A DNA stretch of 64,000 nt from Candidatus Aldehydirespirator sp. (GCA_965221215.1 OZ244872.1:3288862-3352861); one strand, 5' to 3'; shown: positions 1 to 60,790, counted from the first letter of the stretch. Numbers and translations: made by a program. The notes: a model not told the origin generated them from the sequence alone.

Positions 1-2817
1 AGCCATCATTGGCGGAGGGGGCGTGGGCTCAAACGTCAGCGTGATCGGATCGACCCCGGCGGGGACAGCACCGGCGTGGAGCGTCCCGGCGAACTCGAAT
101 GTCGCTCGCACGTAGCTCCGGAGCAACTCGTGGGAGGTTGGCGACGTTCCTCCTTCGAGGAAGCGGTCGCGCAGTTCGACGAGCCAACCCGCGAGTGCGC
201 GCTCGAACGGTCCGCCAGGGGCGGGCATCTGGTGGGAGCAGGTGGCACCGAAGGCGGCACCTACGGCGCGCTCAATCACGTACGGATCGTCAACATCGAG
301 CATCCGGGAAGCGATCACGAACGCGCGCTTCGGCTCCGGTCGGCCGTAGCGCTGCAGAGCCTTGGTCGCCAGATCGCGTATCTCCTCGCTTGTGGAGGTG
401 AGTAGCCACGCTGTGGCGAGGGCATTCAGGCCATCTTGGTCGTTGCGGTCGAACTCGCGAGCCCAGTAATCGATCAGCGCCTTCAGATCCTTGAGGATTA
501 GGTCGCTGGTGCGAAGGCGGACCCATTCGGTCCAACGGCGGTCGCGCTCAGGCAATGGCAACCGGCGAAGGACTCGGTCAAGGAAGTCGGCGTTGAGGCG
601 GTGAGTAGGCGAAGCCCGCACCTCCCATAGCCGATCAAACGGGTGCCCTCGGCCCGACTGTGGCCATGTCCCACCGACGATCAGCGTCTCGAGTTCGTCG
701 ACGGTGTGATCGTCAAGGAACTCGGATTCCGAGTGGAGTTCCTGAGCAAGTGCACAGGGTCGGCGCTCATTAGGCGCGAAGCGCCAGAGATGGTGCCCAC
801 GGAATCGGCGGGGAACCAACCCGACCATGTTGACGGCAACGTCGTCCCCGAACGGTCGGCGCTCCTCGCCTAGGAGGGACTCCCATAGCGATGATTCGGA
901 GAGACCCTCCGCCACCTCGGAGTAGAGCATGCGCACCAGCAGGCCGTCAGCGATCAGGTATCCGGCGAAGCGATCGAACAGTATTCCCACCTGAGTGTCG
1001 TCGCTGCCATCAATCTCCTCGCGAAGGAGCACGCCCTCCTCTTCGAGGCGCCGGAACAGGCTTTCGTCCCAGTTCGTCTCGCCGGCGTCCAGTATCGCCC
1101 TCGCTTCATCAGACGGGAGGCGCCGGGTGCCGCGGCTCCACAGCTTCAGAGCCAGCGAAGTGAGCCTGCGTTTGATCTGGTCACTGGGTATCGCCGCACG
1201 AGCAGGATCTTCCGCGAGGCGCTTGGCTACACGATCGAGGTATAACTCGAAGACACCGACCAGCGAAGTCGGCAAGGCCTCGACACCAACTGGATGCTGG
1301 CGTTGCGGGTTTGCTGCCTCACAGTAAATCCGGACGAACAGCGGGTTGTGGAACATTCCGGTCGGTAGCCAGGCACCGGCGGCGTTGATGAGATAGTGCT
1401 CGAAGTAGGCGTCGACGAGGTCGTTGACCTCGGGCCGGTACCACTCGAGTTCGACGGTCGTGGCGGTGGTTGGAACAGCCCTGGTGGCCAGTTCCTCGCG
1501 GAGCGTGATGACCACGACCACGTAGGGGAAGTCGCCAAGCGCTGGTACGAGTTCCTCTAGCAGTCCGCGCCACTCGGAGGGTCGCTCTGCCTCGTTCAGC
1601 CCGTCGATGGCTACCGGGATCCGAGCGCCAGCACGCGCACCTGCCGAGTTGAGCGCCTCAAGGAGGTCGTCGAAACGGTTGACGTTCAGCCCAGGGATCC
1701 GCTGCGCCAAGTCATCGAGGCTGTCCCCGGCTCTCAGGTGCCCGCCCTGGATGAACACCCCGGCTGTCTCCTGATCAAGCGGCGCGGTCAGCTGCGCGGC
1801 TAGGTGTGTCTTGCCCAAGCCAGCAGCGGCAACGACGGCGATCATCCCGGCGTCCGCATCAGCATCTGCCTCCTGCAGCCACCAGACCACGTCACGGATC
1901 TCGGCGGCGATGCCGGTGACAGCTAGGGCGGCCGGCAGTCGCCGCTTCCTCAGCGCCAAGACAAGACTTCGGAGCTTGCGTGTTGAGCAGGCGGGGGGCT
2001 GCTGCTCGGCGATGCGGACACGAGCTTCGGTCGGGCGACGGTTGCGCCCAGCGTCGACTATCGCGCGCAAGTCCGTGACAAACTTGTCCAGGTCATCCGC
2101 TGTGTCCTCGACATCTGCACGGAGCGAGGCGTCGTCGATGTCGCCGAAGGTGTCACGGAGCGTCTCGGTACGATATGCGATGGATGCGGCGCGCTCATCG
2201 AGCCATCCGAACTGCACCGAGCGCAGGAGCGCCCGCTCGAGCTTGTGTTCCACATGGCTTGGCCTGTGCAGTTGCGGCACCCAACGCGCCTTGACCGGCG
2301 CGACGGACCGCTCGTGAGCCCTCTCCAGCACATCCGGGGACAGCACGAGCTCTCCGAAGAACGTGGAACGGAGCTCGTCGAACCCAGAGAGCTCAGCGTC
2401 GAAGTTCTCTGCCGCCCACAGCTTTGTCGAGATGTCCCTGGACGGTCCCAGGCTGTCGATCCACTCCACGTCCCTCTTCGCTGGGCGCTGTGGAAGGCAG
2501 AGCACGAAATCGGTCAGCCCGTCAACGTATTCGATCGCCTTGTCGACCGACTCCTCGATCTGTTTGCGTCGCGAACGAGTGAGCTCGTTGTTCGAGCTGA
2601 GCACGAACCACTTACACGACCACCCCCACACGCGGCCGGGATCCCCGAGCTCACCCGAGTGTTCGACCCGCAGATAGAACTCCACACCAGGCTGCTGGCG
2701 TCGCTCACGAAGGGTACCCAATGCTCCGTAACGGCGCGACACGATCGCCCGCGTCAGAGCTTCGAAGTTCGTGTCAGGGGCGCCAGCCAGACCAGCCAAC
2801 TGAGTCAGGTCCAACAT
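1..2817 (-). CDS. NACHT/STAND-type P-loop NTPase, >939 aa, C-terminus lies beyond the window start
   Basis: Own minus-strand translation; the ORF has no stop inside the window, so it is missing from the track. ATG at 2817, in-frame upstream stop at 2869-2871, open to nt 1. Walker A MIAVVAAAGLGKTHLA (about 1800-1845). NACHT-like Walker B RIPVAIDGLNEAE. C-terminal HEAT-like repeats (EEIRDLATKALQRYG, DDPYVIERAVGAAFG). An unassigned N-terminal domain of about 320 aa precedes the P-loop. Confidence 0.75.
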   Translation of the reverse strand, partial: MLDLTQLAGLAGAPDTNFEALTRAIVSRRYGALGTLRERRQQPGVEFYLRVEHSGELGDPGRVWGWSCKWFVLSSNNELTRSRRKQIEESVDKAIEYVDGLTDFVLCLPQRPAKRDVEWIDSLGPSRDISTKLWAAENFDAELSGFDELRSTFFGELVLSPDVLERAHERSVAPVKARWVPQLHRPSHVEHKLERALLRSVQFGWLDERAASIAYRTETLRDTFGDIDDASLRADVEDTADDLDKFVTDLRAIVDAGRNRRPTEARVRIAEQQPPACSTRKLRSLVLALRKRRLPAALAVTGIAAEIRDVVWWLQEADADADAGMIAVVAAAGLGKTHLAAQLTAPLDQETAGVFIQGGHLRAGDSLDDLAQRIPGLNVNRFDDLLEALNSAGARAGARIPVAIDGLNEAERPSEWRGLLEELVPALGDFPYVVVVITLREELATRAVPTTATTVELEWYRPEVNDLVDAYFEHYLINAAGAWLPTGMFHNPLFVRIYCEAANPQRQHPVGVEALPTSLVGVFELYLDRVAKRLAEDPARAAIPSDQIKRRLTSLALKLWSRGTRRLPSDEARAILDAGETNWDESLFRRLEEEGVLLREEIDGSDDTQVGILFDRFAGYLIADGLLVRMLYSEVAEGLSESSLWESLLGEERRPFGDDVAVNMVGLVPRRFRGHHLWRFAPNERRPCALAQELHSESEFLDDHTVDELETLIVGGTWPQSGRGHPFDRLWEVRASPTHRLNADFLDRVLRRLPLPERDRRWTEWVRLRTSDLILKDLKALIDYWAREFDRNDQDGLNALATAWLLTSTSEEIRDLATKALQRYGRPEPKRAFVIASRMLDVDDPYVIERAVGAAFGATCSHQMPAPGGPFERALAGWLVELRDRFLEGGTSPTSHELLRSYVRATFEFAGTLHAGAVPAGVDPITLTFEPTPPPPMMA

Positions 2818-2825
2818 TGCCTGCT

Positions 2826-3239
2826 TCAGCAATCTTCGGCAGTTCTCGGCGTTCCGTCCTCGTTCCAGTCATGGCGGGAGAACACCTCGACTCGCGCTCC
2901 GAGGTGGATGAGTACCTTGAGGAAGCCTTGGACCTCGGACTCCTCGGTCTGGACTCGGACGGTCGAGTCCCTTCGTTCGACCGTGTGCTCGAAGGCGTAG
3001 ATGTCGACGTCGGATCTGCCCATGTCGTAGAGCTTGAGCTCGCGCAGACCATCCATGAGCGAGCCGGGCATGCGCTCCTCGCGGAATCTCCAGTCGTCGT
3101 CGGACCACTCGGACTCGGCGAGGATCCTCAGCGCCTCCATCTTCTCAATCGCCGCTTCTGCACCGGTGACTGTCTCGAACGTCCCGACAAGCAAGAGGTC
3201 CATCGAGTGTTCGGACCCGTAGCTGTACCAGATCCTCAC
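2826..3239 (-). CDS. hypothetical acidic 137-aa protein, translationally coupled to the radical-SAM gene
   Basis: Track ORF. The GTG start overlaps the rSAM stop (GTGA at 3236-3239), with AAGGAGG just upstream. Coding-like codon usage, no TM segment. The only Cys is the last residue. No family recognised. Confidence 0.6.
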   Translation of the reverse strand: MRIWYSYGSEHSMDLLLVGTFETVTGAEAAIEKMEALRILAESEWSDDDWRFREERMPGSLMDGLRELKLYDMGRSDVDIYAFEHTVERRDSTVRVQTEESEVQGFLKVLIHLGARVEVFSRHDWNEDGTPRTAEDC

Positions 3240-4135
3240 ACCGCCTCCTTCAACGCTCCCACGGCATCGAGGATGGAGTCCCCGACGAGCGTTCCCACCA
3301 GCGAGTACGCGTTCGGGCGAAGGATGCCGGTCGCGTCAACATGCAGGTGCGCGTCCAGAGAGGACTCATCCGCTATGGGCTCGGCGACCGGTACGGAGGC
3401 CTCAAGGCCGGAACGGGAGATCGCGAGCCGCACCGGCGGCTTGGCGGCACGCACCCAGCGCACGAGTCGCTCAGCGTCAGTGTCAGAGATCCCAGGTCTG
3501 GCCACGGTCGGCTGCTCGGGCAGGAGGAGGAGTTCGGACGCGCCGACTTCGGCGGCGAACTCAGCGAGTTGATCCAGCTCGGCGACAGTGTCGGCGTTGA
3601 CGACCGCGTTGATGCCGATCGGAGCTACCGAACGCAACATGGTGGCAGCGTCGACTACTGCCGCGAACGGCCGGTGCCGGAGACGCTCGTAGGTGGATCC
3701 GACACCGTCGACGGATAGGCGTGCGAAGTGAACAGACCCTCGCAGCGAGTCTGTGAGTTCAGGGCTGAGCCGATGGCCGTGTGTGGTGAAGCTCACCGCC
3801 ATCGACGTCGACTCGGTGATCTGAGCGCAGAGCTGGGCGAACCGGGGATGAGTGGTCGGTTCCCCACCTCCAAACCCAATACCGAGACAACCAGCGCGGT
3901 CGAACTCCACTGCCCAGGCAACCACGCGGTCCGCGTCGAGTGCCGCCGCATGCTTGGGAGCGTAACAGTAGGCGCAGCGAAGCTCGCAGGCGTTCGTCAG
4001 CGCGATCGACAGATAACGGGGAGCCAGCGACTGCTGCTCTGGGGGCACGTCGACCTCGTCCAGCAGGACGTTCAGCCCGGACACGCGGTCGAATAGGTGA
4101 ATGCCTGCTTCGCACCAACGGATCTTGTGTGTCAT
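3236..4135 (-). CDS. radical SAM protein (SPASM-maturase-like N-terminus, Cys-less C-terminal half)
   Basis: 299-aa ORF. Cluster motif TNACELRCAYCYAP (C50-x3-C54-x2-C57). GGGEP SAM-binding motif. No Cys after residue 103. Confidence 0.85.
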   Translation of the reverse strand: MTHKIRWCEAGIHLFDRVSGLNVLLDEVDVPPEQQSLAPRYLSIALTNACELRCAYCYAPKHAAALDADRVVAWAVEFDRAGCLGIGFGGGEPTTHPRFAQLCAQITESTSMAVSFTTHGHRLSPELTDSLRGSVHFARLSVDGVGSTYERLRHRPFAAVVDAATMLRSVAPIGINAVVNADTVAELDQLAEFAAEVGASELLLLPEQPTVARPGISDTDAERLVRWVRAAKPPVRLAISRSGLEASVPVAEPIADESSLDAHLHVDATGILRPNAYSLVGTLVGDSILDAVGALKEAV

Positions 4136-4241
4136 CGCACCATGCTGCCACCGCTAGTTGTGCTCCGCGGGAAGGTTGTCCTCGAGTAGCTGGTTGCGTG
4201 TGTGAAATCGGGGCAGCGGCAAGCGGCATTCGGCGAATAGG

Positions 4242-23650: not shown

Positions 23651-23730
23651 GAGGCTACGGCAGCCACGGTCGCCGCGATGAGTCTTCGGCGTCCGCCCCG
23701 TCGGGTGAGCGATAGTCTTGGCGGGCGCAG

Positions 23731-23803
23731 GCCCGAATAGCTCAGCCGGTAGAGCGACGCTCTCGTAAAGCGTAGGTCAGGGGTTCAAATCCCCTTTCGG
23801 GCT
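23731..23803 (+). tRNA. tRNA-Thr (anticodon CGT)
   Basis: Manual cloverleaf: acceptor GCCCGAA/TTCGGGC, D arm GCTC-AGCCGGTA-GAGC, anticodon arm ACGCT-CTCGTAA-AGCGT, T arm AGGGG-TTCAAAT-CCCCT. Confidence 0.9.
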
Positions 23804-23817
23804 CCCATGACACCTTC

Positions 23818-40345: not shown

Positions 40346-40603
40346 GATCACCCACAGCGACCGCCACCACAAGCAACACGAGCCCACCACTCGACGTACT
40401 CCCACGCCGAGAAGCGATTCCGCGGCCACGAGCCTCGTTCCCGTTCATCGAGATCGGCCTGGAGTCGTTGGCTCCGGCGACAACACGACCGGCGGCCACA
40501 GACCCTCACGCTGCAATGCGCCCAGCAGCGCGGCGGTCCGCCGATTGCGACTCGCCAGGAAGGACACAGCACCCCAGTCGAGCGAACAGATAGTTCGCTG
40601 GTG

Positions 40604-40677
<74 letters not shown>

Positions 40678-45616: not shown

Positions 45617-46214
45617 GGTCGGGCTCCCCTTCGTTGGGCGGCGCGGGCGGACATCCTGGCCAGCCCGCGGCGGGCGATTCCCATATCCACCACACCGTCG
45701 GACCCAGCACTGCGGCCAGTTGCGGCCCGGCCTCGACTACCACGGTGCCCTCGCCCACCAGCACCACCGGCAGCACCGCCGCGGCGCAGCCGCCCGGCTT
45801 GGCGGCCAACACTGCAGCATCGCCGGCTCTGGGTCCCGGCTCGGGCCACAGCGACGGGTCGACCGCCACGGCCAGCAGGGCAGCCGACAGATCCGAGGCT
45901 GCGGGCACAGCCGAATCGGCCATCAGGGCTGCAGACACCACTGTGCCGGCCGGAACGGCCACTGCCGGCACCCGGTCGGCCAACTGGTCGGGGGTCACGA
46001 ACAGAGCGGCCGACTCCTCGGGCAACTCCACCATCACGTATTCGCCCGGCTCGCGTCCTGGGGACCAGTCCTCGGCTGTGGCCACGACCTGCACCGTCGT
46101 CTCGGGCTCGGTGCGTCCGAACAGCAACACCGACAGCACAACCACCACAACGATCACGGCAGCGGCGGTGAACCGCCGGGCTTGGCCCGACATCTGGGAG
46201 GGGTTGGTGCCCAT
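45597..46214 (-). CDS. CpaB/RcpC-like pilus assembly protein (TM + SAF-like domain)
   Basis: 205 aa. N-terminal TM RRFTAAAVIVVVVVLSVLLFG. SAF-like VQVVATAEDWSPGREPGEYVMVELPEE...VPAGTVVSAALM. AGGAG RBS. The track ORF is over-extended. Confidence 0.55.
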   Translation of the reverse strand: MGTNPSQMSGQARRFTAAAVIVVVVVLSVLLFGRTEPETTVQVVATAEDWSPGREPGEYVMVELPEESAALFVTPDQLADRVPAVAVPAGTVVSAALMADSAVPAASDLSAALLAVAVDPSLWPEPGPRAGDAAVLAAKPGGCAAAVLPVVLVGEGTVVVEAGPQLAAVLGPTVWWIWESPAAGWPGCPPAPPNEGEPDRVDDLG

Positions 46215-46222
46215 CGCTGCTC

Positions 46223-48190
46223 CTAAGCCGCCGGCACCGGCGTCGCGGTGCCTTGTTGGAGGGTGATGCCGGACGTGTAGTCGACGATCTCCAGGAACCA
46301 TTCGACGCCGCTGGCGAGGGTGACGCATTGGTGGAAGGTTTTGTCGTTCCCGATGCCCTCGAAGCAGGCACGGGCCTGCCAGGACCAAACCCCCGGCGCC
46401 GGCAGCTCCCAGCGGCAGTCGTCGTAGGAGTGCGCCGACGCCTTGGCCGTCTCGATGCCGCATGAGGCCTTCACGTTCCGGCTGGTGTGGTGCTGTTGGG
46501 CCTGGGTCTGCTGGGCCGCGCTCAGGTTGTCCCAGCGGCGCAGGTAGGTGGCCAAGTCCGCGTCGGGCCGGGCCGAATCGGCGTTTTCGATGGTGGCGCG
46601 GTGCCCCGCACGCCACGGCAGCAGCTGGGTGAGGCGGGTCTCGACGCTGACAACCTCCCACAGGCAGCCGTCGTGGCTGTCGACGTACCAGACTCCCTGT
46701 GGATCGGCTACCGGCCACACCGGCGACCCCGACACCACCAGGTGCTGGGCGCCGCCGGGCACGTTGGGATGCGGTGGCCAGGGTCTCCCCGACTCGCCCT
46801 GCGGCTCGATGCCCACCAGCGTCGCCCACTGCAGCTGCGACACGAGCAGCGAACGCTCACTCGTCGACAGCGACAGACCGGTGGTACACGGCGCTGCATC
46901 CTCGTCCGGGGGGTTGGGATCATCAGGCCTGCGAGGATCGCCCGGTTTGCGAGGGTCGTCCGGTTTGCGGGGATCAGCCGGCTTGCGAGGAGTGGGACCG
47001 TCTTCGTCGTCATCCTCGGGGAGGATCCGAGCCAGGAAGGCGGCGAGCTGCTCGTTGTCCATCGTCGAGTCGGGGTCGGCGTCGGGCCGTGTGTAGGGGT
47101 TGGCCACCCCGTCGCCGTCGCGGTCGTGACCCTTCAGAATCCCCAGATCGGCCAACTCGTCGGCCACCTCGAACGGGTCGTCGTCCGGGTCGAACTCGAT
47201 GCCGAGCCCGGCCGCAATAGCGATCAACATTTGCCCTCGCGTGACAAGTCCCTCGGCCGGCAGGGTTTTCGTGGCCGAGTCCGCGTCGAAGTCGGGGTTG
47301 TGCTCCCCGAAGGCCTTGAGGATCTTCACCAGGTCGACGGCTTCGCTCTCCTCTTCGGGGTCGTAGTCCTCAGGCAAGTAGCCGTTGTCGATGCCGGATT
47401 CGATTTCATCGCACGCCCAGTCGGCGGTGCACCCTTGATCCTCATTGTCCGGGACTTGGGTCGTGGTGGTGGCGGGCGGAGCGGTTGTGGTGGGCGTCGG
47501 ACGTCGAGTGGTGGTAGTGACGGGCCTCCTGGTGGTTGGCACGGGTCGGGCCGTCGTGGTGGGCGGCGGCCGTCGGACAGTTGTGGTGGGCACTGGCCGT
47601 CGGGTGGTGGTGGGTCTTTGGGTTGTTGTTGTGGGGCGTCGGGTCGTGGTTGGTGGCGGTTGAAAGCAGTGGTTGGGTGGGCTGCAGATGGGTGGCCTGG
47701 TGGTAGTCGGCCTCCTGGTGGTGGTTGGTGGCGGTTGAAAGCACTGGTTGGGTGGGCTGCAGATCGGGAGCCGGGTTGTGGTGGGTCGTCGGACAGTTGT
47801 GGTGGGCACCGGCCGTCGGGTGGTGGTGGGTCTTTGGGTTGTTGTCGTGGGGCGTCGGGTCGTGGTTGGTGGCGGTTGAAAGCAGTGGTTGGGTGGGCTG
47901 CAGATGGGTGGCCGGGTGGTGGTCGGGCGTCGGGTCGTGGTTGGTGGCGGTTGAAAGCAGTGGTTGGGTGGGCTGCAGATGGGTGGCCGGGTGGTCGGGG
48001 GCCGCGTGGTGGATGTTCTGTGGGTGTGGCCTCGGAAGAGCGGGTGAGCTGACGCCGACTTGGTGCCCAGGCCCAAGTCGGAGCGCTGGTGGGCAATCAC
48101 CCCGCCCAGCACCAAGGCGGCGGCGAGGGCGATGATCACCAGCGCGTTGCGGCCTGGAGACGGTCGGGACGGTTGTGGCGATGCAAACAT
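46223..48190 (-). CDS. secreted or anchored surface protein: signal/anchor + Pro/Thr-rich CSPPN(H/Q)C repeats + acidic SLH-like/Ca-binding-like segment + Cys/Trp-rich C-terminal domain
   Basis: 655 aa from ATG 48190 (AAGGAG RBS). N-terminal helix ALVIIALAAALVLGGVI. Four copies of PICSPPN(H/Q)CFQPPPTTTRRPTTT. SLH-like motifs VTRGQMLIAIAAGLG and EQLAAFLARIL. DRDGDG. Confidence 0.8.
   Translation of the reverse strand: MFASPQPSRPSPGRNALVIIALAAALVLGGVIAHQRSDLGLGTKSASAHPLFRGHTHRTSTTRPPTTRPPICSPPNHCFQPPPTTTRRPTTTRPPICSPPNHCFQPPPTTTRRPTTTTQRPTTTRRPVPTTTVRRPTTTRLPICSPPNQCFQPPPTTTRRPTTTRPPICSPPNHCFQPPPTTTRRPTTTTQRPTTTRRPVPTTTVRRPPPTTTARPVPTTRRPVTTTTRRPTPTTTAPPATTTTQVPDNEDQGCTADWACDEIESGIDNGYLPEDYDPEEESEAVDLVKILKAFGEHNPDFDADSATKTLPAEGLVTRGQMLIAIAAGLGIEFDPDDDPFEVADELADLGILKGHDRDGDGVANPYTRPDADPDSTMDNEQLAAFLARILPEDDDEDGPTPRKPADPRKPDDPRKPGDPRRPDDPNPPDEDAAPCTTGLSLSTSERSLLVSQLQWATLVGIEPQGESGRPWPPHPNVPGGAQHLVVSGSPVWPVADPQGVWYVDSHDGCLWEVVSVETRLTQLLPWRAGHRATIENADSARPDADLATYLRRWDNLSAAQQTQAQQHHTSRNVKASCGIETAKASAHSYDDCRWELPAPGVWSWQARACFEGIGNDKTFHQCVTLASGVEWFLEIVDYTSGITLQQGTATPVPAA
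47453..48016 (-). repeat. in-frame tandem repeats (75-bp unit nested in a roughly 225-bp duplicated block) encoding the PT/Cys repeats
   Basis: Protein residues 59-246. The block PPICSPPNHCFQPPPTTTRRPTTTR-PPICSPPNHCFQPPPTTTRRPTTTTQRPTTTRRPVPTTTVRRP occurs twice almost identically. Confidence 0.9.
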
Positions 48191-48210
48191 GGCAGCAGCT
48201 CCTTTGAGGG

Positions 48211-49641
48211 TCAGCAGGTGGTGGGGAAGTGCCGTTCGGGGGTGGCGTGGTGGTGCTCCATCCACTCCTCGGCGAGACGGGCTGAGCGCCAGCAGTCCCT
48301 TCTGTCCAGGCCGAAGATGTCTTGCTCGACCCACTCACTCCAGGCGGCGCAATCGTTGCCGAAGCGCTCCGGCTCAATGTGGGGCCACCCGGTTCTGGTC
48401 TCAAGCTCCACGTCGGCGGGAAGCACGGTGCGGCACCGTTCGGCCAGCGTCATGGTGGCCGACAACATCAGGCCGGCATCGTTGGTCCGGCCTGCGGGGG
48501 TATCGGCGACTAGAGGGTCAATGACGGTGGCGCAGTGGTGCCACCCGTGGCGGTTCATGGCGGTGGCGCCCCTGAGCCCGGCGGCGTAGGCGTCGGCACG
48601 GTCCTGGTATTCGTTGAGCACGCACCACGGATGTGCACCCAGGTAGTCCATCGCCCACTTCATCTGGGTGAGCAGCCACCTGCAGTTGCCGCGGGGCTGA
48701 TCGAAGCACCAACTCGTCCAGCGGGCCACATCGCTGGTCCAGCGGGGAATCTCGTCGGGCCTCCCCGAAGCGCAGATGCCTCCTACGCCCTGGTCGGGGT
48801 ACGGGCTGGGACAGCCCGTCAGATCCTGGGGCGTCTCCCACTCTGACGGCGGGTGACAGTCGGAGGGCCACGGCGGACCCGGGTCGCAGATCGGGTAGTC
48901 CCAATAGGGATGTTCACGGGGGATCATTCCCAACTCGGGGGCGGGCGGATGGCCGCCCTCGGGCGCAGGACTCGTCCCCGCCACCGTGACCGGAATCGTG
49001 GTGGTCGCAGGCGGAGCGGTCGTCGTGGGTGGCGGCGGTGTCGTCGTGGTGGTCGTCGTGGTTGTAGTGGCCGGCGGGGCGGTGGTTGCGGGTGGGGCGG
49101 TGGTTGGCGGTGTCGTTGTGGGCGGCGGGCTGGTGGTTGTGGGCGGCGGAGCGGTCGATGTGGCTGGGGCCAAGAAAGTCGGTGTGGTCGCGGCGCTCGT
49201 GTTGTCGGGTGGTGCGTCTTCGTCGCCGGGTACGGAGGCGGAGGCCTCGGTCGTTGCGACTGCTGTCGTGGGAGTGATGGCGCCGATCATTTGCGGGGCC
49301 GGGTCGGCGGGGACCTCGACGTTCTCGGCGGGGAGATCTTCGAACAGCAGCTTGGGCGGCCACTCGATTGCCGGTTCATCGGCTGGCGGGAGGCTCGGAT
49401 CGGTGGCGTCGTTGTCCCGGTCAGCCTCTGCGCCGCTGGGTTCAGGCGGGTCGGAGTCGGCGGTGGCCAAGACCGGCTCGGGGTTGTCGGCGGTCCCACA
49501 GCTGGCCGCGAACACGCCGAGGGCGACCACCAACGTGATCGCCACCCGGAGTGCGCAAGGTCTGGGGATGGTCTTCGAGACTCCGCCAGATGAAGCTGTG
49601 GGGCGGTGGTTGGCAATGGATTCAAAATGACAGAAATGCAT
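48211..49641 (-). CDS. putative lipoprotein with acidic region, poly-Pro/Thr linker and Cys/Trp/His-rich C-terminal domain
   Basis: 476 aa from ATG 49641. Lipobox-like LGVFAASC (Cys48). PT linker at residues 148-217 (48991-49200). C-terminal domain with 10 Cys. The track ORF extends artefactually to 49914. Confidence 0.65.
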   Translation of the reverse strand: MHFCHFESIANHRPTASSGGVSKTIPRPCALRVAITLVVALGVFAASCGTADNPEPVLATADSDPPEPSGAEADRDNDATDPSLPPADEPAIEWPPKLLFEDLPAENVEVPADPAPQMIGAITPTTAVATTEASASVPGDEDAPPDNTSAATTPTFLAPATSTAPPPTTTSPPPTTTPPTTAPPATTAPPATTTTTTTTTTPPPPTTTAPPATTTIPVTVAGTSPAPEGGHPPAPELGMIPREHPYWDYPICDPGPPWPSDCHPPSEWETPQDLTGCPSPYPDQGVGGICASGRPDEIPRWTSDVARWTSWCFDQPRGNCRWLLTQMKWAMDYLGAHPWCVLNEYQDRADAYAAGLRGATAMNRHGWHHCATVIDPLVADTPAGRTNDAGLMLSATMTLAERCRTVLPADVELETRTGWPHIEPERFGNDCAAWSEWVEQDIFGLDRRDCWRSARLAEEWMEHHHATPERHFPTTC

Positions 49642-49648
49642 GGGGGAA

Positions 49649-49677
49649 CACTTAGCGCACTCAAAGGCAATGTGCAA
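49649..49677 (-). promoter_or_regulatory. putative promoter of Tad-like locus 2 (-35 TTGCAC, 17-nt spacer, -10 TAAGTG); would give a leaderless or near-leaderless mRNA
   Basis: On the minus strand the -35 is at 49677-49672 and the -10 at 49654-49649, 7 nt before ATG 49641. It sits in the only AT-rich gap of the region, divergent from hpnC. Confidence 0.35.
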
Positions 49678-49678
49678 C

Positions 49679-49704
49679 TTTTTTGTGATATTTCTTTGAA
49701 AATC
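49679..49704 (-). promoter_or_regulatory. AT-rich box GATTTTCAAAGAAATATCACAAAAAA (minus strand), homologous to 5198-5225
   Basis: See the alignment given for feature 5198-5225. Same position, directly 5' of the -35 element. Confidence 0.4.
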
Positions 49705-49789
49705 AGCGTTGACCTGGGCATTTGAGTCTCTGAACGACCGCCCGGTCGTCGCCGGTGGTAGCTTCGAGCCGGTGGGAGGGGAGCCAGTA

Positions 49790-50671
49790 GTGGACGGCGC
49801 TACGCAAAACGACCCTTCGGAGCACGCCGCCGCTGAGCGCCATGTGGGGCTCGACGCGGTGATGGCCCGGGCATCCTCTGAGAATTTCCCGGTGGCGCTG
49901 CAGCTCCTGCCCACCGCGGTGCGGCAGCACCTGCGGGCCGTCTACGGCTACGCGCGGCTCGTCGACAACCTCGGCGACGAGTACCCCGGCGACCGTCCGG
50001 CCGCCCTGGACTGGGTGGAGGCCCAGATCGACAGCCTGTTCGCAGGAGCCCCCCGCCACGAGGTCTTCGTTCGGCTGGCTCCCACGGTGGCGCGCTTCGG
50101 GCTGGACCGCAGGCCTTTCGACCGGCTTCTGGCCGCCAACCGGCTCGACCAGCACAAGCACCGCTACGCCGACTTCGACGAGCTGATGAAGTACTGCGAG
50201 CTGTCGGCCGACCCCGTCGGCCACCTGGTGCTGGCCGTGTTCGAGGCGGCTACCCCCGAGCGTCTGGCCGCCTCCGACCAGGTCTGCCGCGGCCTGCAGG
50301 TGCTGGAGCACCTCCAAGATGTGGGCGAGGACGCCGCTCAGGGGCGCGTCTACCTCCCCGCCGACGACATGGAGCGCTTCGGCGTGTCCGTCGAAGACCT
50401 CCGCGCTCCGGCGGCGTCGGCGGGCCTGCGAGGTCTGGTGGCCTACGAGGCGGCCCGGGCCCGGACCATGATTGGTGAGGGGCGGGGGCTGGTGGCATCG
50501 CTTCGCGGCCCGGCCCGCCTGGCCGTGGCCGGGTTCGTGGCCGGGGGGCTGGCCGGTCTCGATGCCATCGAGGCGGCCCGCTTCGAGGTGCTGGGCGGCC
50601 TTCGCAAGGCCGGACCGGCCCGAGTGGCGGCCCGCTTCGCAAGTGTGTACCTGGGAGCAGGCAACCCGTGA
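49790..50671 (+). CDS. hpnC: hydroxysqualene synthase (squalene/phytoene synthase family, HpnC-like)
   Basis: ENFPVALQLLP...RAVYGYARLVDNLGDE is an HpnC-type N-terminus. The GTG 49790 start is uncertain (track TTG at 49709; ATG at 49861 also possible). Confidence 0.75.
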   Translation: MDGATQNDPSEHAAAERHVGLDAVMARASSENFPVALQLLPTAVRQHLRAVYGYARLVDNLGDEYPGDRPAALDWVEAQIDSLFAGAPRHEVFVRLAPTVARFGLDRRPFDRLLAANRLDQHKHRYADFDELMKYCELSADPVGHLVLAVFEAATPERLAASDQVCRGLQVLEHLQDVGEDAAQGRVYLPADDMERFGVSVEDLRAPAASAGLRGLVAYEAARARTMIGEGRGLVASLRGPARLAVAGFVAGGLAGLDAIEAARFEVLGGLRKAGPARVAARFASVYLGAGNP

Positions 50672-55487: not shown

Positions 55488-57143
<1,656 letters not shown>

Positions 57144-57161
57144 TTCCAGTCCCCCCAAAGA

Positions 57162-57198
57162 CAACAGCCCGGCCCGCCCCCTCGGCGCCGGGCTGTTG
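57162..57198 (+). terminator. GC-rich hairpin after groEL (12-bp stem, no U-tract)
   Basis: CAACAGCCCGGC-13 nt-GCCGGGCTGTTG, starting 19 nt after the stop codon. Confidence 0.6.
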
Positions 57199-57220
57199 CG
57201 CGCCCGGCTAGCTTGCAGGC

Positions 57221-57718
57221 ATGGCTGAGCTGCATCCGTTGTGCGGGCCGCTCGCGCCCCTGCTCGGGACGTGGCGGGGCACGGGTAGGGGCAGTTACCC
57301 GACCATCGACGACTTCGACTACACCGAGGAGCTGGTCTTCGGCCATGTGGGCAAGCCGTTCCTGTCCATGGTCCAGCGCAGCCGCGACCTCTTGACGGGC
57401 GAGCCGCTGCACGGCGAGGCCGGGTTCCTGCGGGCTCTGCCCGACGGCGCCGTCGAGCTCACGGTGGCGCAGCCGTCAGGAGTCGTCGAAGTCGACTCGG
57501 GCTCTGTGACCGGGACCTCCGACGGCCTAGTCGTCGAACTGGAGTCCGCCGAGGTCGGCCTCACGTCCACGGCCAAGTCGGTGACCGCCGTGCGGCGGCG
57601 GCTGGAGGTAGTCGGCTCGACCCTGACCTCGGAGCTGTGGATGGCCGCGGTGGGTGAGACCGACCTGATCCACCACGTGCGGGCAGAACTACGGCAGTGG
57701 GACCGGACCAGTGGTTGA
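57221..57718 (+). CDS. nitrobindin/THAP4-like heme-binding beta-barrel protein (DUF1794)
   Basis: LAPLLGTWRGTGRGSYPTIDDFDYTEELVFGHVGKPFL is the characteristic N-terminal motif. Confidence 0.8.
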   Translation: MAELHPLCGPLAPLLGTWRGTGRGSYPTIDDFDYTEELVFGHVGKPFLSMVQRSRDLLTGEPLHGEAGFLRALPDGAVELTVAQPSGVVEVDSGSVTGTSDGLVVELESAEVGLTSTAKSVTAVRRRLEVVGSTLTSELWMAAVGETDLIHHVRAELRQWDRTSG

Positions 57719-57998
57719 GGTGCCCACGACCGATGGATGACCAGATCGAGCACGCTGTAGCCATCGGCCGGGAGAACCAGAACCTCATCTCGTCAGGCAA
57801 AGCGTGACCATCAGCCTTGATTGCGTGTCAGCCCTCAACATGGTCGAGTCGCCCGTCTCCTATGGGTGCGGTTTCTCGCGAACTCTAGTCACAGACCATC
57901 CTGAGGGTTCTCTGGCAGATTCCGTTGCTGTACTTCGTGGACCACTGCCTACTGCCGCCCTTCGACCCGGTTGCGCCTGGGTACCGTAGCCTCTAGCC

Positions 57999-58796
57999 AT
58001 GGCCACCAAGTCGAGGAGCCAGCAACGGCTGGTGCGGCCCTGGACGGGCGACGAGGCCGCGGACAACCGCAGGGCCGACCGGCTCGCCTCCGAGGAGCCT
58101 ATGGCCATCGAACTGGACGACGTGCGGGTGGCCACCACCATGCGCACCCCGGGCAACGATTTCGAGCTTGCCGTGGGCTTCTGCTTTGCCGAAGGGCTGC
58201 TCGACGGCCACGGGGTGACCCAGGTCAAGTACTGCGCCAAGGGCTCGGCCGCGGCCACTGACTTCAACGTGGTGTCGGTCTCCACCGGGGGCAAGGCCCC
58301 GCTGCCCCGGCCCCGGCTAACCACCACCACCTCGTCTTGCGGCTTCTGCGGCACGAGCGAGATCGACGAGCTCGTCTCCAAGCTTGATGCAGTGACCGGC
58401 GAGCCGATGCGGTGGGAGGCGCTGGCTTCCGCTCCCGACCAGTTGCGACCCGGACAGGAGTTGTTCGATGCCACTGGCGCGGTTCATGCGGCCGGCGTGG
58501 TGGCTGCCAATGGTTCGGTCTCGCTGGTCCGCGAGGACGTGGGCCGCCACAACGCGGTCGACAAGCTCATCGGCCGGCTGTTCCTCGACGGTCGCCTGCC
58601 TGCCACCGGGCAGGGACTGGTGGTCAGCGGCCGGGCCAGCTTCGAGCTTGTCCACAAAGCTTGGGCCGGAGGGTTTCGGGCTCTGGTGGCCGTGAGCGCC
58701 CCCACCGCGCTGGCCGCGGCCACCGCAGAGGCCGCCGGGATGCAGCTGGCTGGCTTCGCCCGCAACGGCGCCATGACCGTCTACGTTGGCACCTGA
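57999..58796 (+). CDS. fdhD: formate dehydrogenase accessory sulfurtransferase FdhD
   Basis: Motifs TMRTPGNDFELAVGFCFAEGLL, SSCGFCG and GAVHAAG. Confidence 0.9.
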   Translation: MATKSRSQQRLVRPWTGDEAADNRRADRLASEEPMAIELDDVRVATTMRTPGNDFELAVGFCFAEGLLDGHGVTQVKYCAKGSAAATDFNVVSVSTGGKAPLPRPRLTTTTSSCGFCGTSEIDELVSKLDAVTGEPMRWEALASAPDQLRPGQELFDATGAVHAAGVVAANGSVSLVREDVGRHNAVDKLIGRLFLDGRLPATGQGLVVSGRASFELVHKAWAGGFRALVAVSAPTALAAATAEAAGMQLAGFARNGAMTVYVGT

Positions 58797-58823
58797 TCCC
58801 GAGTCTGACCCGAGAGGAGGATC

Positions 58824-59639
58824 GTGACCGACCAACCCGACCAACATCCAAGTCCGCAGGCTCTGGTTCTTGACGCGTTTCGGATTGCGGCAAGACAGGG
58901 CAGACCCGAGTGGCATCGCATGGCAGGAGCTGTTCTGAAGAACCGTCTCTTGGATCTCACCGAGCGGTCGTTCGATGAGGCCGCCTATGGCGCAGATCGG
59001 TTCGTCGACCTCGTCGAACAGCTTGACGATCTGCTTACTGTGGACCACTCGGCCAAGCCCTTTGTTATAGAGTTGCAGGAGCCGTACCGCTCTGAGATCG
59101 AGCAGTCGGATGCCGTTAGCGCCTCGTCGAGTGGGAAGACGATCCGGTCGGATCTCTGGCACGCGGTCGTCGATTACAGCCATGACCAGAGATGGGTTCT
59201 GGATCGGGTAACCGGCAAGGCGATCCGTGTGCGAGAAGGGGACGACTCGGGCGGCGGAGTTGATCTTCCCACCTTGGACCGGGCGACCCTGCAGACTTGG
59301 CGAATCGATTTCATCGAAGAATGTTCGGCTACGGTGAGTGACGCAGAGGCGCTTCAACTCAAGGCCTGGGTCGGCGAGGGCCTCGGGACTGCGGCTCTGC
59401 CGAAGAGGCTCCGTGGTCCCTGGACTATTCGGATGCGCGACCGGGTCCATGAGAGGTTGCTCGAGTTCTTCCATTCTCAGGAGCTAGATCCGCCCAAGGA
59501 CTTGCTTGTCCTGCCACGACAGCGCAAGCCTGCCAATGAGCTTCGGTCCTTCATAGTGCGATGCATATCGCTGATGAACGACCGCGAGTTGAAGGAACTC
59601 CAAATTCCGGCGGAAGTTGCCATGCGGGCGCATGGATGA
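58824..59639 (+). CDS. hypothetical protein, possible N-terminal OST-HTH/LOTUS-like domain
   Basis: 271 aa. GAGGAGGA RBS before the GTG. Lower-GC codon usage. W..MAGAVLKNRLLDL...FDEAAYGADRFVDLVEQLDDLLTV resembles the OST-HTH pattern (weak, by eye). Confidence 0.6.
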   Translation: MTDQPDQHPSPQALVLDAFRIAARQGRPEWHRMAGAVLKNRLLDLTERSFDEAAYGADRFVDLVEQLDDLLTVDHSAKPFVIELQEPYRSEIEQSDAVSASSSGKTIRSDLWHAVVDYSHDQRWVLDRVTGKAIRVREGDDSGGGVDLPTLDRATLQTWRIDFIEECSATVSDAEALQLKAWVGEGLGTAALPKRLRGPWTIRMRDRVHERLLEFFHSQELDPPKDLLVLPRQRKPANELRSFIVRCISLMNDRELKELQIPAEVAMRAHG

Positions 59640-60436
59640 CGATGGCTCCGGCGGGCGTGTGGCACATCCAAGTACCTGGGTTCCACCCAGTCATTGATGT
59701 CCAAGCTGTAGCAGACTCGCGCGGCTGGGAACTGGCAAGCATCAGGTGTGTTCGTCTCGTGTCCGGCCGCGGCCGGGTCCTTCACGTCGTGCCGCGCGCG
59801 GATGCCGTTCGCCTGTACGAGGAGATGCACCGCCGTCCCGTGGCGGTGGTGTACGAAGGCAAGCCGAGAGTCAGACTTGACCCCGGCAAGAACCTTCGCG
59901 ACGACCGTACCGTGTCGCTCTATCGGTATTGCCGCTACAAGTCCTTCGTAACGAGCCTACGGTCGAACGCGGCTGCTCTCTGGGGCACAGCCTTCGAAGA
60001 CTGGTTGGCACAGATCGACTGTGATGGACCGAACGATCCGCGGATTCTTCCCTTTCACATTTTCACAACGAAGGGCCCCTTCGAGCTAGACGAGACGGCT
60101 GAGCGAAAGCGGTTCCGGCAAGAACACCACAACAAGTCGGCGCTCGTGGACGACCGCAAGCGCCGTTGGGTGTTGGCGTCGCCGGGAGCACGGCATGGGA
60201 GAGAGCCGCAGACCGTCCGCGACTTGCAGTTGCACGACGGCTTTCACTGGGACGTGACGGTCCCACGCGCTTCTGTCGTGGCATCGTCACACACAATGTG
60301 GAGGGTTGGATCTGGCGGATACCTCAACATCTATCCGGACGGCCATGTTCGTCGCGGCAAGCAGTGCAAGCAAACTTGGAGCAAGAGCCAGAGCGAGCAA
60401 GCCGACGCGAATGATCGCAACAGGAGCTGGCCGTGA
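59636..60436 (+). CDS. hypothetical protein (266 aa), translationally coupled to the previous gene
   Basis: ATG 59636 overlaps the upstream stop (ATGA). Lower-GC codon usage. No family recognised. The track ORF start at 59561 is over-extended. Confidence 0.6.
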   Translation: MTMAPAGVWHIQVPGFHPVIDVQAVADSRGWELASIRCVRLVSGRGRVLHVVPRADAVRLYEEMHRRPVAVVYEGKPRVRLDPGKNLRDDRTVSLYRYCRYKSFVTSLRSNAAALWGTAFEDWLAQIDCDGPNDPRILPFHIFTTKGPFELDETAERKRFRQEHHNKSALVDDRKRRWVLASPGARHGREPQTVRDLQLHDGFHWDVTVPRASVVASSHTMWRVGSGGYLNIYPDGHVRRGKQCKQTWSKSQSEQADANDRNRSWP

Positions 60437-60790
60437 ACGCGAATACCCGGCAACAAGGCCGGGAATTCACTGAAATCTATGCGAGGTCTCGGCCATCGAG
60501 AGCGGGTCTCGGTGGTCAGCCGGTTGCGAAATAAGAAGACTAACTAGTCTCGCCTCGCTGATACTGGGCAACCGCTGAGCCCCACCTCCACTCTCACATG
60601 ACTGGCACTCGATGCGGTGCTACCCCAACGAATGCCCTCCTCGTCCTTGAAGGCCTCGGATCGTTCTTGAATGTAGCAGAAGATTGTACGAGCGCGTCGA
60701 ATCGGCAGAATCCGGCACCTGTGGCGTCCATGTGTCGCTCAACTCCGTCACCCAGCCTGCTAGGGGGCTGCGCCGGCTCCATAGACTGCG

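What the first reader, a model, noticed from the sequence alone, without database searches (positions are those of the whole stretch)
1..4135. Radical-SAM enzyme + 137-aa protein + NACHT/STAND NTPase operon: candidate undescribed defence or signalling system (cut by the window edge)
Three co-directional minus-strand genes are tightly linked. The rSAM gene (3236-4135) carries CELRCAYC = CxxxCxxC and GGGEP. Its stop overlaps the GTG of a 137-aa acidic protein (GTGA overlap, AAGGAGG RBS). Eight nt after that gene's stop, ATG 2817 opens a reading frame of at least 939 codons. This frame has a NACHT-type Walker A (AAAGLGKTHLA), Walker B (VAIDGLNEAE) and HEAT-like C-terminal repeats. It is not in the supplied ORF track because it has no stop inside the window. 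By eye the segment has lower GC and more A/T-ending codons than the adjacent core genes. STAND/NACHT NTPases (Avs, bNACHT) are established antiphage sensors. Radical-SAM enzymes are established in defence only as viperin-like enzymes, and this one does not look viperin-like. I know of no described system combining these three families.
Basis: partly seen in the sequence, partly recalled or inferred. Interest (0 to 1): 0.8.

Follow-up and report, generated by a model that had tools for sequence, protein, structure and literature searches.

The report
Known Avap1–Avap2–Avs2 antiphage operon
The three genes are real and form a true conserved module, but it is an already published antiphage system (the Avs2 sensor-nuclease with its two helper proteins Avap1 and Avap2, described in Klebsiella in 2024); this is a new copy of it in a high-GC actinobacterium, cut by the window edge.

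Summary
On the minus strand lie a 299-aa radical-SAM gene (3236-4135), a 137-aa gene (2826-3239, GTGA overlap, AAGGAGG RBS) and an ORF from ATG 2817 that stays open for 939 codons to the window edge. The segment has lower GC and GC3 than its flanks.

The claim that the system is undescribed is not supported. The 137-aa protein is a full-length PF19902/DUF6375 protein. The large ORF matches PADLOC's Avs2 models (1.7e-89). Béchon et al. 2024 (PMC11564622) described and tested exactly this operon as KpAvs2: Avap1 (radical SAM), Avap2 (DUF6375) and Avs2 (Mrr-like nuclease, STAND NTPase, C-terminal sensor).

In 80 loci fetched through Avap2 homology, from at least 8 phyla, Avs2 lies directly downstream in all 80. 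An Avap1-like rSAM lies directly upstream in 79; the 80th starts at a contig edge. The window's K69 and K336 align with K71 and K337, the residues mutated in KpAvs2. All three genes are under purifying selection (dN/dS 0.17-0.22).

What Avap1 and Avap2 do is still unknown in the literature. My models add leads only: Avap1 is structurally closest to the peptide-modifying rSAM maturases SkfB and SuiB but lacks auxiliary-cluster cysteines, and Avap2 has a ferredoxin-like fold with an invariant, disordered N-terminal tail.

Verdict: a new member of a known kind, of low to moderate interest.

The parts
1..2817 (-). avs2, the first 939 codons. It encodes an Avs2-type STAND NTPase with an N-terminal nuclease effector. 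The C-terminal ~390 codons, which hold most of the sensor tip, lie beyond the window edge.
   Evidence: The frame is open from ATG 2817 to position 1. PADLOC Avs2 PDLC02164 matches at 1.7e-89 over residues 3-913; NCBIfam NF041813 Avs2 matches at 8e-57, below its cutoff. The ~90% identical ortholog in L001 is intact at 1331 aa. PDB 9o4e (EcAvs2) matches residues 327-860 of that ortholog at 5e-33.
2428..2817 (-). Avs2 N-terminal Mrr-like PD-(D/E)xK nuclease effector domain (about residues 1-130). Motifs: G-V-E46 (2680-2682) and W-S-C-K69-W (K69 codon at 2611-2613).
   Evidence: A profile of this domain from 14 diverse loci hits the N-terminal domain of EcAvs4 (PDB 8dgf, residues 1-102) at E 6e-6, with GxE and GWQxK aligned. 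K69 aligns with K71 of the Pectobacterium ortholog, and K71 is the KpAvs2 nuclease mutant position (PMC11564622). No Pfam nuclease family hits directly.
1807..1821 (-). Walker A motif GLGKT (K336) of the STAND NTPase.
   Evidence: It aligns with K337 of the Pectobacterium ortholog, the KpAvs2 K337A position.
1591..1611 (-). Walker B region AIDGLNE (D405).
   Evidence: The motif [ILV]3-DG-[LI]-x-E is present in 72 of 80 related loci.
2826..3239 (-). avap2, a 137-aa DUF6375 protein and Avs2-binding accessory protein. It starts with GTG and is translationally coupled to avap1.
   Evidence: PF19902 matches at 3e-54 over its full length. It is 32% identical (E 7e-25) to a K. pneumoniae DUF6375 protein. 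The AF2 model has pLDDT 82 and a ferredoxin-like fold. Invariant residues are M1, W4, G8, S9, E10, H11, S12, T98, E100, K108, S121 and H123.
3236..4135 (-). avap1, a 299-aa radical-SAM enzyme. It carries CxxxCxxC (3965-3988), GGGEP (3857-3871) and an invariant extra Cys103, and has no SPASM/twitch cysteine cluster.
   Evidence: PF04055 matches at 1.7e-16. Conservation was measured over 74 orthologs. The AF2 model has pLDDT 94.4. Foldseek's best matches are SkfB, DesII and SuiB, followed by viperins.
3244..3250 (-). Shine-Dalgarno AAGGAGG for avap2, lying inside the 3' end of avap1.
4136..4241 (.). 106-bp divergent intergenic region between avap1 and the luciferase-like monooxygenase gene. It is the presumed promoter region of the operon (inferred).
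   Evidence: The sigma-70 consensus scan found nothing here, which is uninformative for this high-GC organism.

Best explanation
This is an actinobacterial (Acidimicrobiales-like) copy of the published three-gene Avap1-Avap2-Avs2 antiphage operon, the KpAvs2 type.

Mechanism as established for relatives, inferred here by homology:
1. The C-terminal helical-repeat sensor of Avs2 binds a phage protein. This is the large terminase, or other small phage proteins in the case of KpAvs2.
2. The STAND NTPase (Walker A K336) drives oligomerisation.
3. Oligomerisation brings the N-terminal Mrr-like nuclease domains (E46, K69) together. They degrade DNA indiscriminately and abort the infection.
4. Avap2 (DUF6375) is a constitutive partner. 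It binds the helical bundle between the nuclease and the NTPase, and it is needed for full defence.
5. Avap1 (radical SAM) widens the range of phages covered, by a chemistry that is still unknown.

My added inference, which is weak: Avap1 descends from twitch/SPASM-type rSAM maturases and may act on a protein or peptide rather than on an NTP.

The cassette sits in a low-GC3 island and was probably acquired horizontally.
For: Family assignments:
- The 137-aa protein is full-length PF19902 at 3e-54.
- The large ORF matches PADLOC Avs2 at 1.7e-89 and NCBIfam Avs2 at 8e-57.
- The rSAM matches PF04055.

Published system:
- PMC11564622 defines the operon as radical SAM (Avap1) + PF19902 (Avap2) + Avs2 (Mrr nuclease, STAND NTPase, C-terminal domain).
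- It shows defence, abortive infection, plasmid DNA degradation, Avap2-Avs2 binding, and a requirement for Avap1 against T2.

Link to KpAvs2:
- The Avap2 family includes K. pneumoniae proteins. The window protein is 32% identical to one of them, E 7e-25.
- The enterobacterial ortholog L072 is 1353 aa, with its nuclease Lys at position 71 and Walker A Lys at 337. These are exactly the KpAvs2 mutant positions, and they align with window K69 and K336.

Conservation of the triad:
- Avs2 lies directly downstream in 80 of 80 loci and the Avap1-like rSAM directly upstream in 79 of 80, in the same order and strand. The loci span Actinomycetota, Pseudomonadota, Cyanobacteria, Verrucomicrobiota, Planctomycetota, Acidobacteriota, Bacteroidota and Bacillota.
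- The triad is also found on cyanobacterial and Vibrio plasmids.

Other support:
- The nuclease domain is homologous to that of EcAvs4 (8dgf).
- Purifying selection acts on all three genes: dN/dS 0.17, 0.18 and 0.22 over 98 pairs.
- Composition suggests horizontal acquisition: GC3 0.75-0.82 against 0.85-0.92 in the flanks.
- In the syntenic ortholog L001, the same low-GC3 island continues into a type II restriction-modification pair.
Against: - No experiment exists for this clade. Its activity, triggers and effector chemistry are inferred from a relative at about 30-45% identity.
- The window lacks the last ~390 codons of Avs2, so the intactness of this particular copy is unproven. Several relatives are frameshifted or hit by an IS element.
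- The nuclease motif reads S-C-K in this clade, not the Q-C-K or Q-C-R of other clades. Catalytic competence is therefore assumed, not shown.
- No Pfam nuclease model hits the N-domain.
- NCBIfam's Avs2 model scores far below its cutoff: 193 bits here and 255 bits for the full ortholog, against 1000.
- The roles of Avap1 and Avap2 are unresolved even in the published system.
Confidence: 0.9

Rival explanations
1. A genuinely undescribed defence or signalling system combining rSAM, a small acidic protein and a NACHT NTPase.
For: PADLOC has no model for the 137-aa protein and calls the rSAM only weakly, as pVip-like. RefSeq annotates the Avs2 of this operon type in E. coli as 'hypothetical protein'. 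A database-only look would therefore not name the triad.
Against: The same three families, in an operon, are described and tested in PMC11564622. Homology to that operon type is shown for all three genes.
Confidence: 0.03
2. A viperin-like system in which Avap1 makes a chain-terminating ddh-nucleotide and the NTPase merely regulates it.
For: PADLOC pVip models hit at 1.3e-15 and NCBIfam viperin at 2.8e-12. Viperins are among the Foldseek matches, with TMq 0.66-0.69.
Against: The hits cover only the generic rSAM core (residues 44-186) and score 46 bits against a cutoff of 180. MoaA, the mycofactocin maturase and SPASM maturases score equally well or better. SkfB and SuiB are the closer structures. 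Béchon et al. found no pVip-type modified nucleotides and no NTP pocket in their Avap1 model.
Confidence: 0.04
3. A RiPP or natural-product cassette. The rSAM matures the small protein as a precursor, and the large ATPase is a pathway regulator (LAL/SARP-like) rather than an immune sensor.
For: Avap1's nearest solved structures are the RiPP maturases SkfB and SuiB. avap1 and avap2 are translationally coupled. Avap2 has an invariant, disordered N-terminal tail.
Against: The large protein is an Avs2 with a nuclease effector domain, not a DNA-binding regulator. There is no transporter, protease or leader-peptide logic. At 137 aa, Avap2 is a folded ferredoxin-like domain. The triad occurs on plasmids and next to a restriction-modification pair. 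The orthologous operon defends against phage.
Confidence: 0.02
4. A decaying, non-functional remnant. The Avs2 ORF merely looks open because the window ends before the lesion.
For: The 3' ~1.2 kb of avs2 is not in the window. Among 80 relatives several are disrupted: L014, L019, L028, L039, L067 and L079. These include an IS3 insertion (also Vibrio plasmids).
Against: The 939 codons hold no stop. All motifs are intact. The ~90% identical syntenic ortholog is complete at 1331 aa. dN/dS between this copy and that ortholog is 0.23 for Avap1 and 0.30 for Avs2.
Confidence: 0.06

Closest known systems
KpAvs2 operon (Avap1-Avap2-Avs2) of Klebsiella pneumoniae S_15PV, Béchon et al. 2024, Nat Commun 15:9860 (PMC11564622)
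   Same: It has the same three families: a radical SAM enzyme, PF19902/DUF6375 and Avs2. Enterobacterial orthologs have the same gene order and tight coupling (L072). Avs2 has the same architecture: an N-terminal Mrr-like nuclease with its Lys at about position 70, Walker A Lys at about 336, and about 1330-1350 aa in total.
   Different: Sequence identity is only about 32% for Avap2. For the other two genes, identity to proteobacterial orthologs is about 42-53% for Avap1 and about 29-37% for Avs2. The host is a high-GC actinobacterium. The nuclease motif reads S-C-K instead of Q-C-K. The phage triggers are unknown, and this clade is untested experimentally.
EcAvs2 (single-gene AVAST type 2; PDB 9O4E, PMC13601566)
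   Same: It shares the STAND NTPase and the proximal helical sensor. PDB 9o4e matches residues 327-860 of the ortholog at 5e-33. Terminase sensing and tetramerisation are the presumed common logic.
   Different: EcAvs2 has a different N-terminal effector of unknown function and no Avap1 or Avap2 partners. The distal sensor region does not align.
EcAvs4 / SeAvs3 nuclease-type Avs proteins (PDB 8DGF)
   Same: The N-terminal Mrr-like nuclease effector is homologous (E 6e-6; the GxE...GWQxK motif aligns).
   Different: They belong to a different Avs family with a different sensor (portal for Avs4), and they are single-gene systems.
Prokaryotic viperins (pVips)
   Same: They share the radical-SAM core and act in antiphage defence.
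   Different: Avap1 fails the viperin family thresholds. It lacks the viperin C-terminal match. The published system made no ddh-nucleotide products.
Twitch/SPASM peptide-modifying rSAM maturases (SkfB, SuiB, PqqE)
   Same: They are the best sequence and structure matches for Avap1: 6efn at E 4e-15 by profile and 2.5e-15 by Foldseek with TMq 0.75; SuiB at TMq 0.75.
   Different: Avap1 has no auxiliary Fe-S cysteines in its C-terminal region; only C103 is invariant outside CxxxCxxC. No RRE or PqqD domain was detected. All NCBIfam maturase models score far below their cutoffs.

Membership tests
Avap1-Avap2-Avs2 operon (KpAvs2 type) | A small accessory protein of family PF19902/DUF6375 (Avap2) | tested here: met
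   PF19902 matches at 3e-54 and 183.7 bits (cutoff 27.5), covering 1-132 of 132 profile positions. The protein is homologous to K. pneumoniae DUF6375 proteins.
Avap1-Avap2-Avs2 operon (KpAvs2 type) | An adjacent radical-SAM protein (PF04055) with CxxxCxxC (Avap1) | tested here: met
   PF04055 matches at 1.7e-16. C50, C54, C57 and GGGEP are present. Identity to the Avap1 of 45 other triads is 41-76%.
Avap1-Avap2-Avs2 operon (KpAvs2 type) | An Avs2-clade STAND NTPase with intact Walker A and B motifs | tested here: met
   PADLOC Avs2 PDLC02164 matches at 1.7e-89. GLGKT (K336) and AIDGLNE are present. K336 aligns with K337 of the enterobacterial ortholog. The NCBIfam Avs2 equivalog cutoff is not reached (193 bits against 1000), as is also the case for the full-length ortholog.
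Avap1-Avap2-Avs2 operon (KpAvs2 type) | An N-terminal Mrr-like PD-(D/E)xK nuclease effector with a catalytic Lys (K71 in KpAvs2) | tested here: met
   K69 in W-S-C-K-W aligns with K71. The domain profile hits the EcAvs4 nuclease domain 8dgf at E 6e-6. Caveats: this clade has S67 in place of Q, and there is no direct Pfam hit.
Avap1-Avap2-Avs2 operon (KpAvs2 type) | A long C-terminal sensor domain homologous to Avs2 sensors | tested here: inconclusive
   The window holds only residues up to 939. The PADLOC Avs2 model aligns to residue 913, and 9o4e aligns to residue 860 of the ortholog. The distal ~390 aa lie outside the window. In the ortholog L001 that part is not matched by the best PADLOC Avs2 model (alignment ends at residue 924), by NCBIfam Avs2 (913) or by 9o4e (860).
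Avap1-Avap2-Avs2 operon (KpAvs2 type) | The three genes are co-directional neighbours, conserved as a unit | tested here: met
   The genes overlap by 4 nt and are spaced by 8 nt. The same order is found in 79-80 of 80 loci across at least 8 phyla.
Avap1-Avap2-Avs2 operon (KpAvs2 type) | Confers phage defence by abortive infection; Avap2 binds Avs2 | not testable with these tools
   This is known only for KpAvs2 (PMC11564622).
Prokaryotic viperin (pVip) | Reaches the viperin family model threshold, including the C-terminal substrate-binding part | tested here: not met
   NF038283 scores 46.4 bits against a cutoff of 180. The PADLOC pVip match covers profile positions 4-152 of 257 only.
SPASM/twitch radical-SAM maturases | C-terminal auxiliary Fe-S cluster cysteines (CxxCxxxxxC-type) | tested here: not met
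   No conserved Cys lies beyond residue 103 in 74 orthologs; column 251 is Cys in 43%. All NCBIfam SPASM models score far below their cutoffs.
NACHT NTPase (PF05729) | A match to the NACHT domain model | tested here: not met
   There is no PF05729 hit at E<=0.1; only AAA_22 (6e-4) and AAA_16 (7.5e-3) hit, both below their cutoffs. The protein is a STAND NTPase of the Avs2 clade.

The most novel reading that the evidence does not exclude
Avap1 is a protein-directed radical-SAM enzyme. It would be derived from a twitch/SPASM maturase that has lost its auxiliary cluster. It would post-translationally modify Avap2, for instance on its invariant and intrinsically disordered N-terminal tail M-x-I-W-x-x-Y-G-S-E-H-S, or modify Avs2 itself, and so tune or license the NLR-like sensor against certain phages.

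This would be the first radical-SAM modification found to control a STAND immune receptor.

The evidence is only suggestive:
- SkfB and SuiB are the nearest structures.
- avap1 and avap2 are translationally coupled.
- The most conserved motif of Avap2 is unstructured in the monomer model.
- There is a weak possible Avap1-like/Avap2-like fusion, P0423 and P0440, with hhalign probability of only 31%.
Probability: 0.15. Interest if true: 0.75.

Novelty: new member of a known kind. Interest (0 to 1): 0.22.

Why it matters
As a discovery it matters little. The system is published, and this is one of more than 200 species-level occurrences.

It has some value in three respects:
- It shows that the Avap1-Avap2-Avs2 cassette is invariant in gene order across at least 8 phyla and on plasmids. 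All three genes are under purifying selection, which argues that Avap1 is a core part and not an optional passenger.
- Standard annotation misses the system. PGAP calls the Avs2 'hypothetical protein', and PADLOC has no Avap2 model and matches Avap1 only weakly, to its viperin (pVip) models.
- The biochemical role of a radical-SAM enzyme beside an NLR-like sensor is still an open question. A high-GC actinobacterial ortholog with a variant nuclease motif (S-C-K) could serve as a comparison point.

Tried and rejected
- Completing Avs2 from the source genome failed. An exact look-up of the window's Avap2 returned no contig on record. I used the ~90% identical syntenic ortholog L001 instead.
- The supplementary files of PMC11564622, which hold the KpAvs2 sequences, are not held. 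The link to KpAvs2 was made indirectly, through K. pneumoniae DUF6375 cluster members and matching residue numbers in the Pectobacterium ortholog.
- A profile search with the Avap2 alignment returned only close actinobacterial hits in the 120 rows shown, which wasted one capped search.
- Avap2 has no informative match to solved structures. By sequence nothing in the PDB scored better than E 0.027. Foldseek found only de novo ferredoxin folds, at E>=0.036 and TM<=0.40.
It was redone with hits from the representative library.
- Longer 'fusion' proteins containing Avap1-like domains showed no extra Pfam domains. The Avap2-like segment in P0440 is weak, at hhalign probability 31%, so I treat it as a lead only.
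- Pfam on the Avs2 N-domain gave no nuclease family.
- Promoter and terminator scans found nothing.
- dN/dS of 1.2 for Avap2 between the window and L001 was a small-sample outlier. The median over 98 pairs is 0.18.
- The viperin, RiPP-cluster, housekeeping-rSAM and pseudogene readings were considered and rejected, as set out under the rival explanations.

Full report
**1. What is in the sequence**

The minus strand of window 1-4135 carries three co-directional, tightly packed ORFs.
- A 299-aa ORF at 3236-4135, with CELRCAYC (residues 50-57) and GGGEP (89-93).
- A 137-aa ORF at 2826-3239. Its GTG start overlaps the upstream TGA stop (GTGA) and is preceded by AAGGAGG at 3244-3250.
- After an 8-nt spacer, an ORF from ATG 2817 that stays open for 939 codons until window position 1. 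It carries GLGKT (333-337) and AIDGLNE (403-409).

These genes have GC 0.61-0.65 and GC3 0.75-0.82. The five genes to the right have GC 0.71-0.75 and GC3 0.85-0.92. Those five are a luciferase-like monooxygenase and a Tad-type pilus set: T2SSE, two T2SSF and a ParA-like protein.

**2. Family assignments**

- Pfam places the 299-aa protein in Radical_SAM (1.7e-16).
- The 137-aa protein matches PF19902/DUF6375 over the whole model (3e-54).
- For the large ORF, Pfam gives only weak AAA_22 and AAA_16 hits and no NACHT hit.
- PADLOC assigns the large ORF to Avs2: PDLC02164 at 1.7e-89, aligned from residue 3 to 913, so the alignment includes the N-terminal domain.
- NCBIfam's Avs2 equivalog is the only hit for the large ORF (8e-57), but it is far below its cutoff.
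- The rSAM hits MoaA, the mycofactocin maturase, viperin and many SPASM maturases. All matches are over the core only and far below the family cutoffs. It belongs to none of those named families.

**3. It is a published system**

A full-text search for DUF6375, and one for Avs2 plus radical SAM, both returned a single paper: Béchon et al., Nat Commun 2024 (PMC11564622). The paper reports the following.
- A subset of Avs2 proteins, typified by KpAvs2 of Klebsiella pneumoniae, sits in a three-gene operon with a radical-SAM protein (Avap1) and a PF19902/DUF6375 protein (Avap2).
- About 5% of Avs2 homologs have Avap2, and most of those also have Avap1.
- KpAvs2 consists of an Mrr-like nuclease, a STAND NTPase and a C-terminal sensor.
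- The operon protects E. coli by abortive infection with DNA degradation.
- The K71A (nuclease) and K337A (NTPase) mutations and a C-terminal deletion each abolish defence.
- Avap2 binds a helical bundle between the nuclease and the NTPase, and it is needed for full defence.
- Avap1 is dispensable against SECphi18 but needed against T2.
- No viperin-type nucleotides were found.
- The roles of Avap1 and Avap2 remain unknown.

Later work solved EcAvs2 bound to terminase (9O4E; PMC13601566). It says nothing about the accessory genes. No other paper in the library mentions Avap1 or Avap2 in this sense.

**4. Is the window's triad the same thing?**

- A scan of one genome per species found Avap2 relatives in 224 genomes.
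- In the 80 loci fetched, profile searches found an Avs2 directly downstream in all 80. An Avap1-like rSAM lay directly upstream in 79; the 80th locus starts 150 nt before Avap2. Order and strand were always the same.
- The hosts span Actinomycetota, Pseudomonadota, Cyanobacteria, Verrucomicrobiota, Planctomycetota, Acidobacteriota, Bacteroidota and Bacillota.
- The triad is also on a Synechococcus plasmid and on conjugative Vibrio plasmids.
- The 90%-identity cluster that holds the enterobacterial Avap2 includes proteins named from K. pneumoniae and from E. coli. The window's Avap2 aligns with one of them over its full length (32% identity, E 7e-25).
- In the Pectobacterium ortholog (1353 aa), the nuclease lysine is residue 71 and the Walker A lysine is residue 337. 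These are exactly the positions mutated in KpAvs2, and they align with K69 and K336 of the window protein.
- A profile of the N-terminal 135 residues hits the N-terminal domain of EcAvs4 (8dgf) at 6e-6, with the GxE...GWQxK motif aligned.
- The ortholog's NTPase and proximal sensor match EcAvs2 (9o4e) at 5e-33.

I conclude that the window encodes a member of the KpAvs2-type operon family.

**5. State of this copy**

- The closest genome locus, L001 (an Acidimicrobiales MAG), is syntenic: the same monooxygenase neighbour at 79% identity. It is ~90% identical in all three proteins, and its Avs2 is intact at 1331 aa. The window therefore lacks about 390 C-terminal codons.
- dN/dS between the two copies is 0.23 for Avap1 and 0.30 for Avs2.
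- Over 98 pairs in the actinobacterial clade, the medians are 0.17 (Avap1), 0.18 (Avap2) and 0.22 (Avs2). All three genes are maintained by selection.
- In L001 the low-GC3 island continues past Avs2 into a type II restriction enzyme (PADLOC REase_II, 4.6e-56) and a Dam-family methyltransferase (7.8e-66). This forms a small defence island. Whether the same is true to the left of this window cannot be seen.

**6. What the models add on the unknown parts**

Avap1:
- It forms a discrete small family: 100 representatives at E<=1e-30 among 1.84 billion, and 322 at E<=1e-10.
- Across 74 orthologs the invariant residues are the CxxxCxxC triad, GGGEP, one extra Cys (C103), a TTHGH motif, R139/S141/D143, Y149/E150/R153, N176/N180, E201, P206, E257 and H265. 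There is no second cysteine cluster.
- Its AF2 model is confident, with pLDDT 94.4.
- The best PDB matches are the RiPP maturases SkfB (E 2.5e-15, TMq 0.75) and SuiB (TMq 0.75), together with DesII. Viperins (TMq 0.66-0.69), MoaA, BlsE, PqqE and anSME follow. The sequence-profile ranking is similar.
- This fits descent from twitch/SPASM-type enzymes with loss of the auxiliary cluster. It does not decide between a protein substrate and a small-molecule substrate.

Avap2:
- It models as a ferredoxin-like alpha/beta domain (pLDDT 82) with no significant structural neighbour.
- Its most conserved motif, the N-terminal M-x-I-W-x-x-Y-G-S-E-H-S, is the only part predicted to be disordered.
- Two distant Avap1-like rSAMs (P0423, P0440) are fused to a segment that weakly resembles this motif: hmmsearch 5e-5, but hhalign probability only 31%. 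P0440 is not next to an Avs2.
- I record the idea that Avap1 acts on Avap2 or Avs2 as a lead at about 15% probability, not as a finding.

**7. Differences from the characterised relative**

The actinobacterial clade, 25 of the fetched loci plus the window, has S-C-K where other clades have Q-C-K or Q-C-R in the nuclease motif. Since the clade is under purifying selection, the variant is probably functional, but this is untested. The distal sensor is unmatched by any model and presumably recognises actinophage proteins.

**8. Verdict**

It is not undescribed. It is a new member, in a new host lineage, of the Avap1-Avap2-Avs2 system published in 2024. Interest is low to moderate. The only open question it touches, what the radical-SAM enzyme and DUF6375 do, is already recognised in the literature, and this sequence alone does not make it more tractable.

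Noticed in passing
L004:11001-12268 (Microbispora triticiradicis); also Vibrio plasmids NZ_CP068629.1 and NZ_CP034301.1: The Avs2 gene of this operon type is interrupted by an IS3-family element (HTH_Tnp_1 + rve ORFs) in Microbispora. It is also interrupted by an IS3 transposase in two Vibrio plasmids. Several other loci (L019, L028, L039, L067, L079) have frameshifted or split Avs2 or Avap1. Inactivation of this cassette therefore seems to recur.
   Followed up: partly
L001:14754-16823 (ortholog locus, directly after Avs2): A type II restriction enzyme (DUF7690/DUF7687; PADLOC REase_II 4.6e-56) and a Dam-family N6-adenine methyltransferase lie in the same low-GC3 island as the triad. The equivalent region of the present genome lies just outside the window.
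   Followed up: partly
window 2608-2622 (Avs2 residues 66-70): The nuclease motif reads W-S-C-K-W in this actinobacterial clade (25 related loci). Other clades have W-Q-C-K-W or W-Q-C-R-W. This is a conserved Gln-to-Ser change next to the catalytic lysine.
   Followed up: partly
P0440 (L089:539-2731) and P0423: These are distant Avap1-like radical-SAM proteins of 730 and 833 aa that retain twitch-like cysteines. Each is fused to a segment beginning V-x-V-W-x-x-F-A-x-N-H-S-T-S-Y-T-L-V-G-E-F, which weakly resembles the Avap2 N-terminus. The gene record of a 17,954-bp JGI contig that carries P0440 (no DNA held) lists TerB-domain and vault-like (MVP_shoulder) genes upstream and no Avs2 beside it.
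   Followed up: partly
E. coli RefSeq genomes (e.g. NZ_CP127297.1:1185848-1191264): The same operon is present in full (at least 80% of the query) in 26 of 5426 complete E. coli genomes, and 549 genomes have at least a partial match. PGAP labels the Avs2 gene 'hypothetical protein', so the system is invisible in standard annotation.
   Followed up: partly
window 45700-49900 and 56000-63200: Two further stretches have lower GC (0.64-0.68) than the window mean of 0.70 and few high-GC3 ORFs. The long ORFs there (e.g. 46223-48334 -, 48211-49914 -, 58317-59474 -, 62098-63219 +) have no Pfam or PADLOC hit. They may be other acquired segments.
   Followed up: partly
window 2826-3239 vs L001:10001-10411: Between this genome and its closest relative, Avap2 shows dN/dS of about 1.2 with very low dS (0.039), against 0.16-0.18 in the two flanking genes. 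The counts are small, and the median over 98 pairs in the clade is 0.18. This is probably noise, but a recent local exchange is not excluded.
   Followed up: yes
window 23730-23807 (+) and 40603-40677 (-): Two tRNA-Thr genes (anticodons CGT and TGT) are the only RNA genes that ARAGORN and Rfam detect in the window.
   Followed up: no
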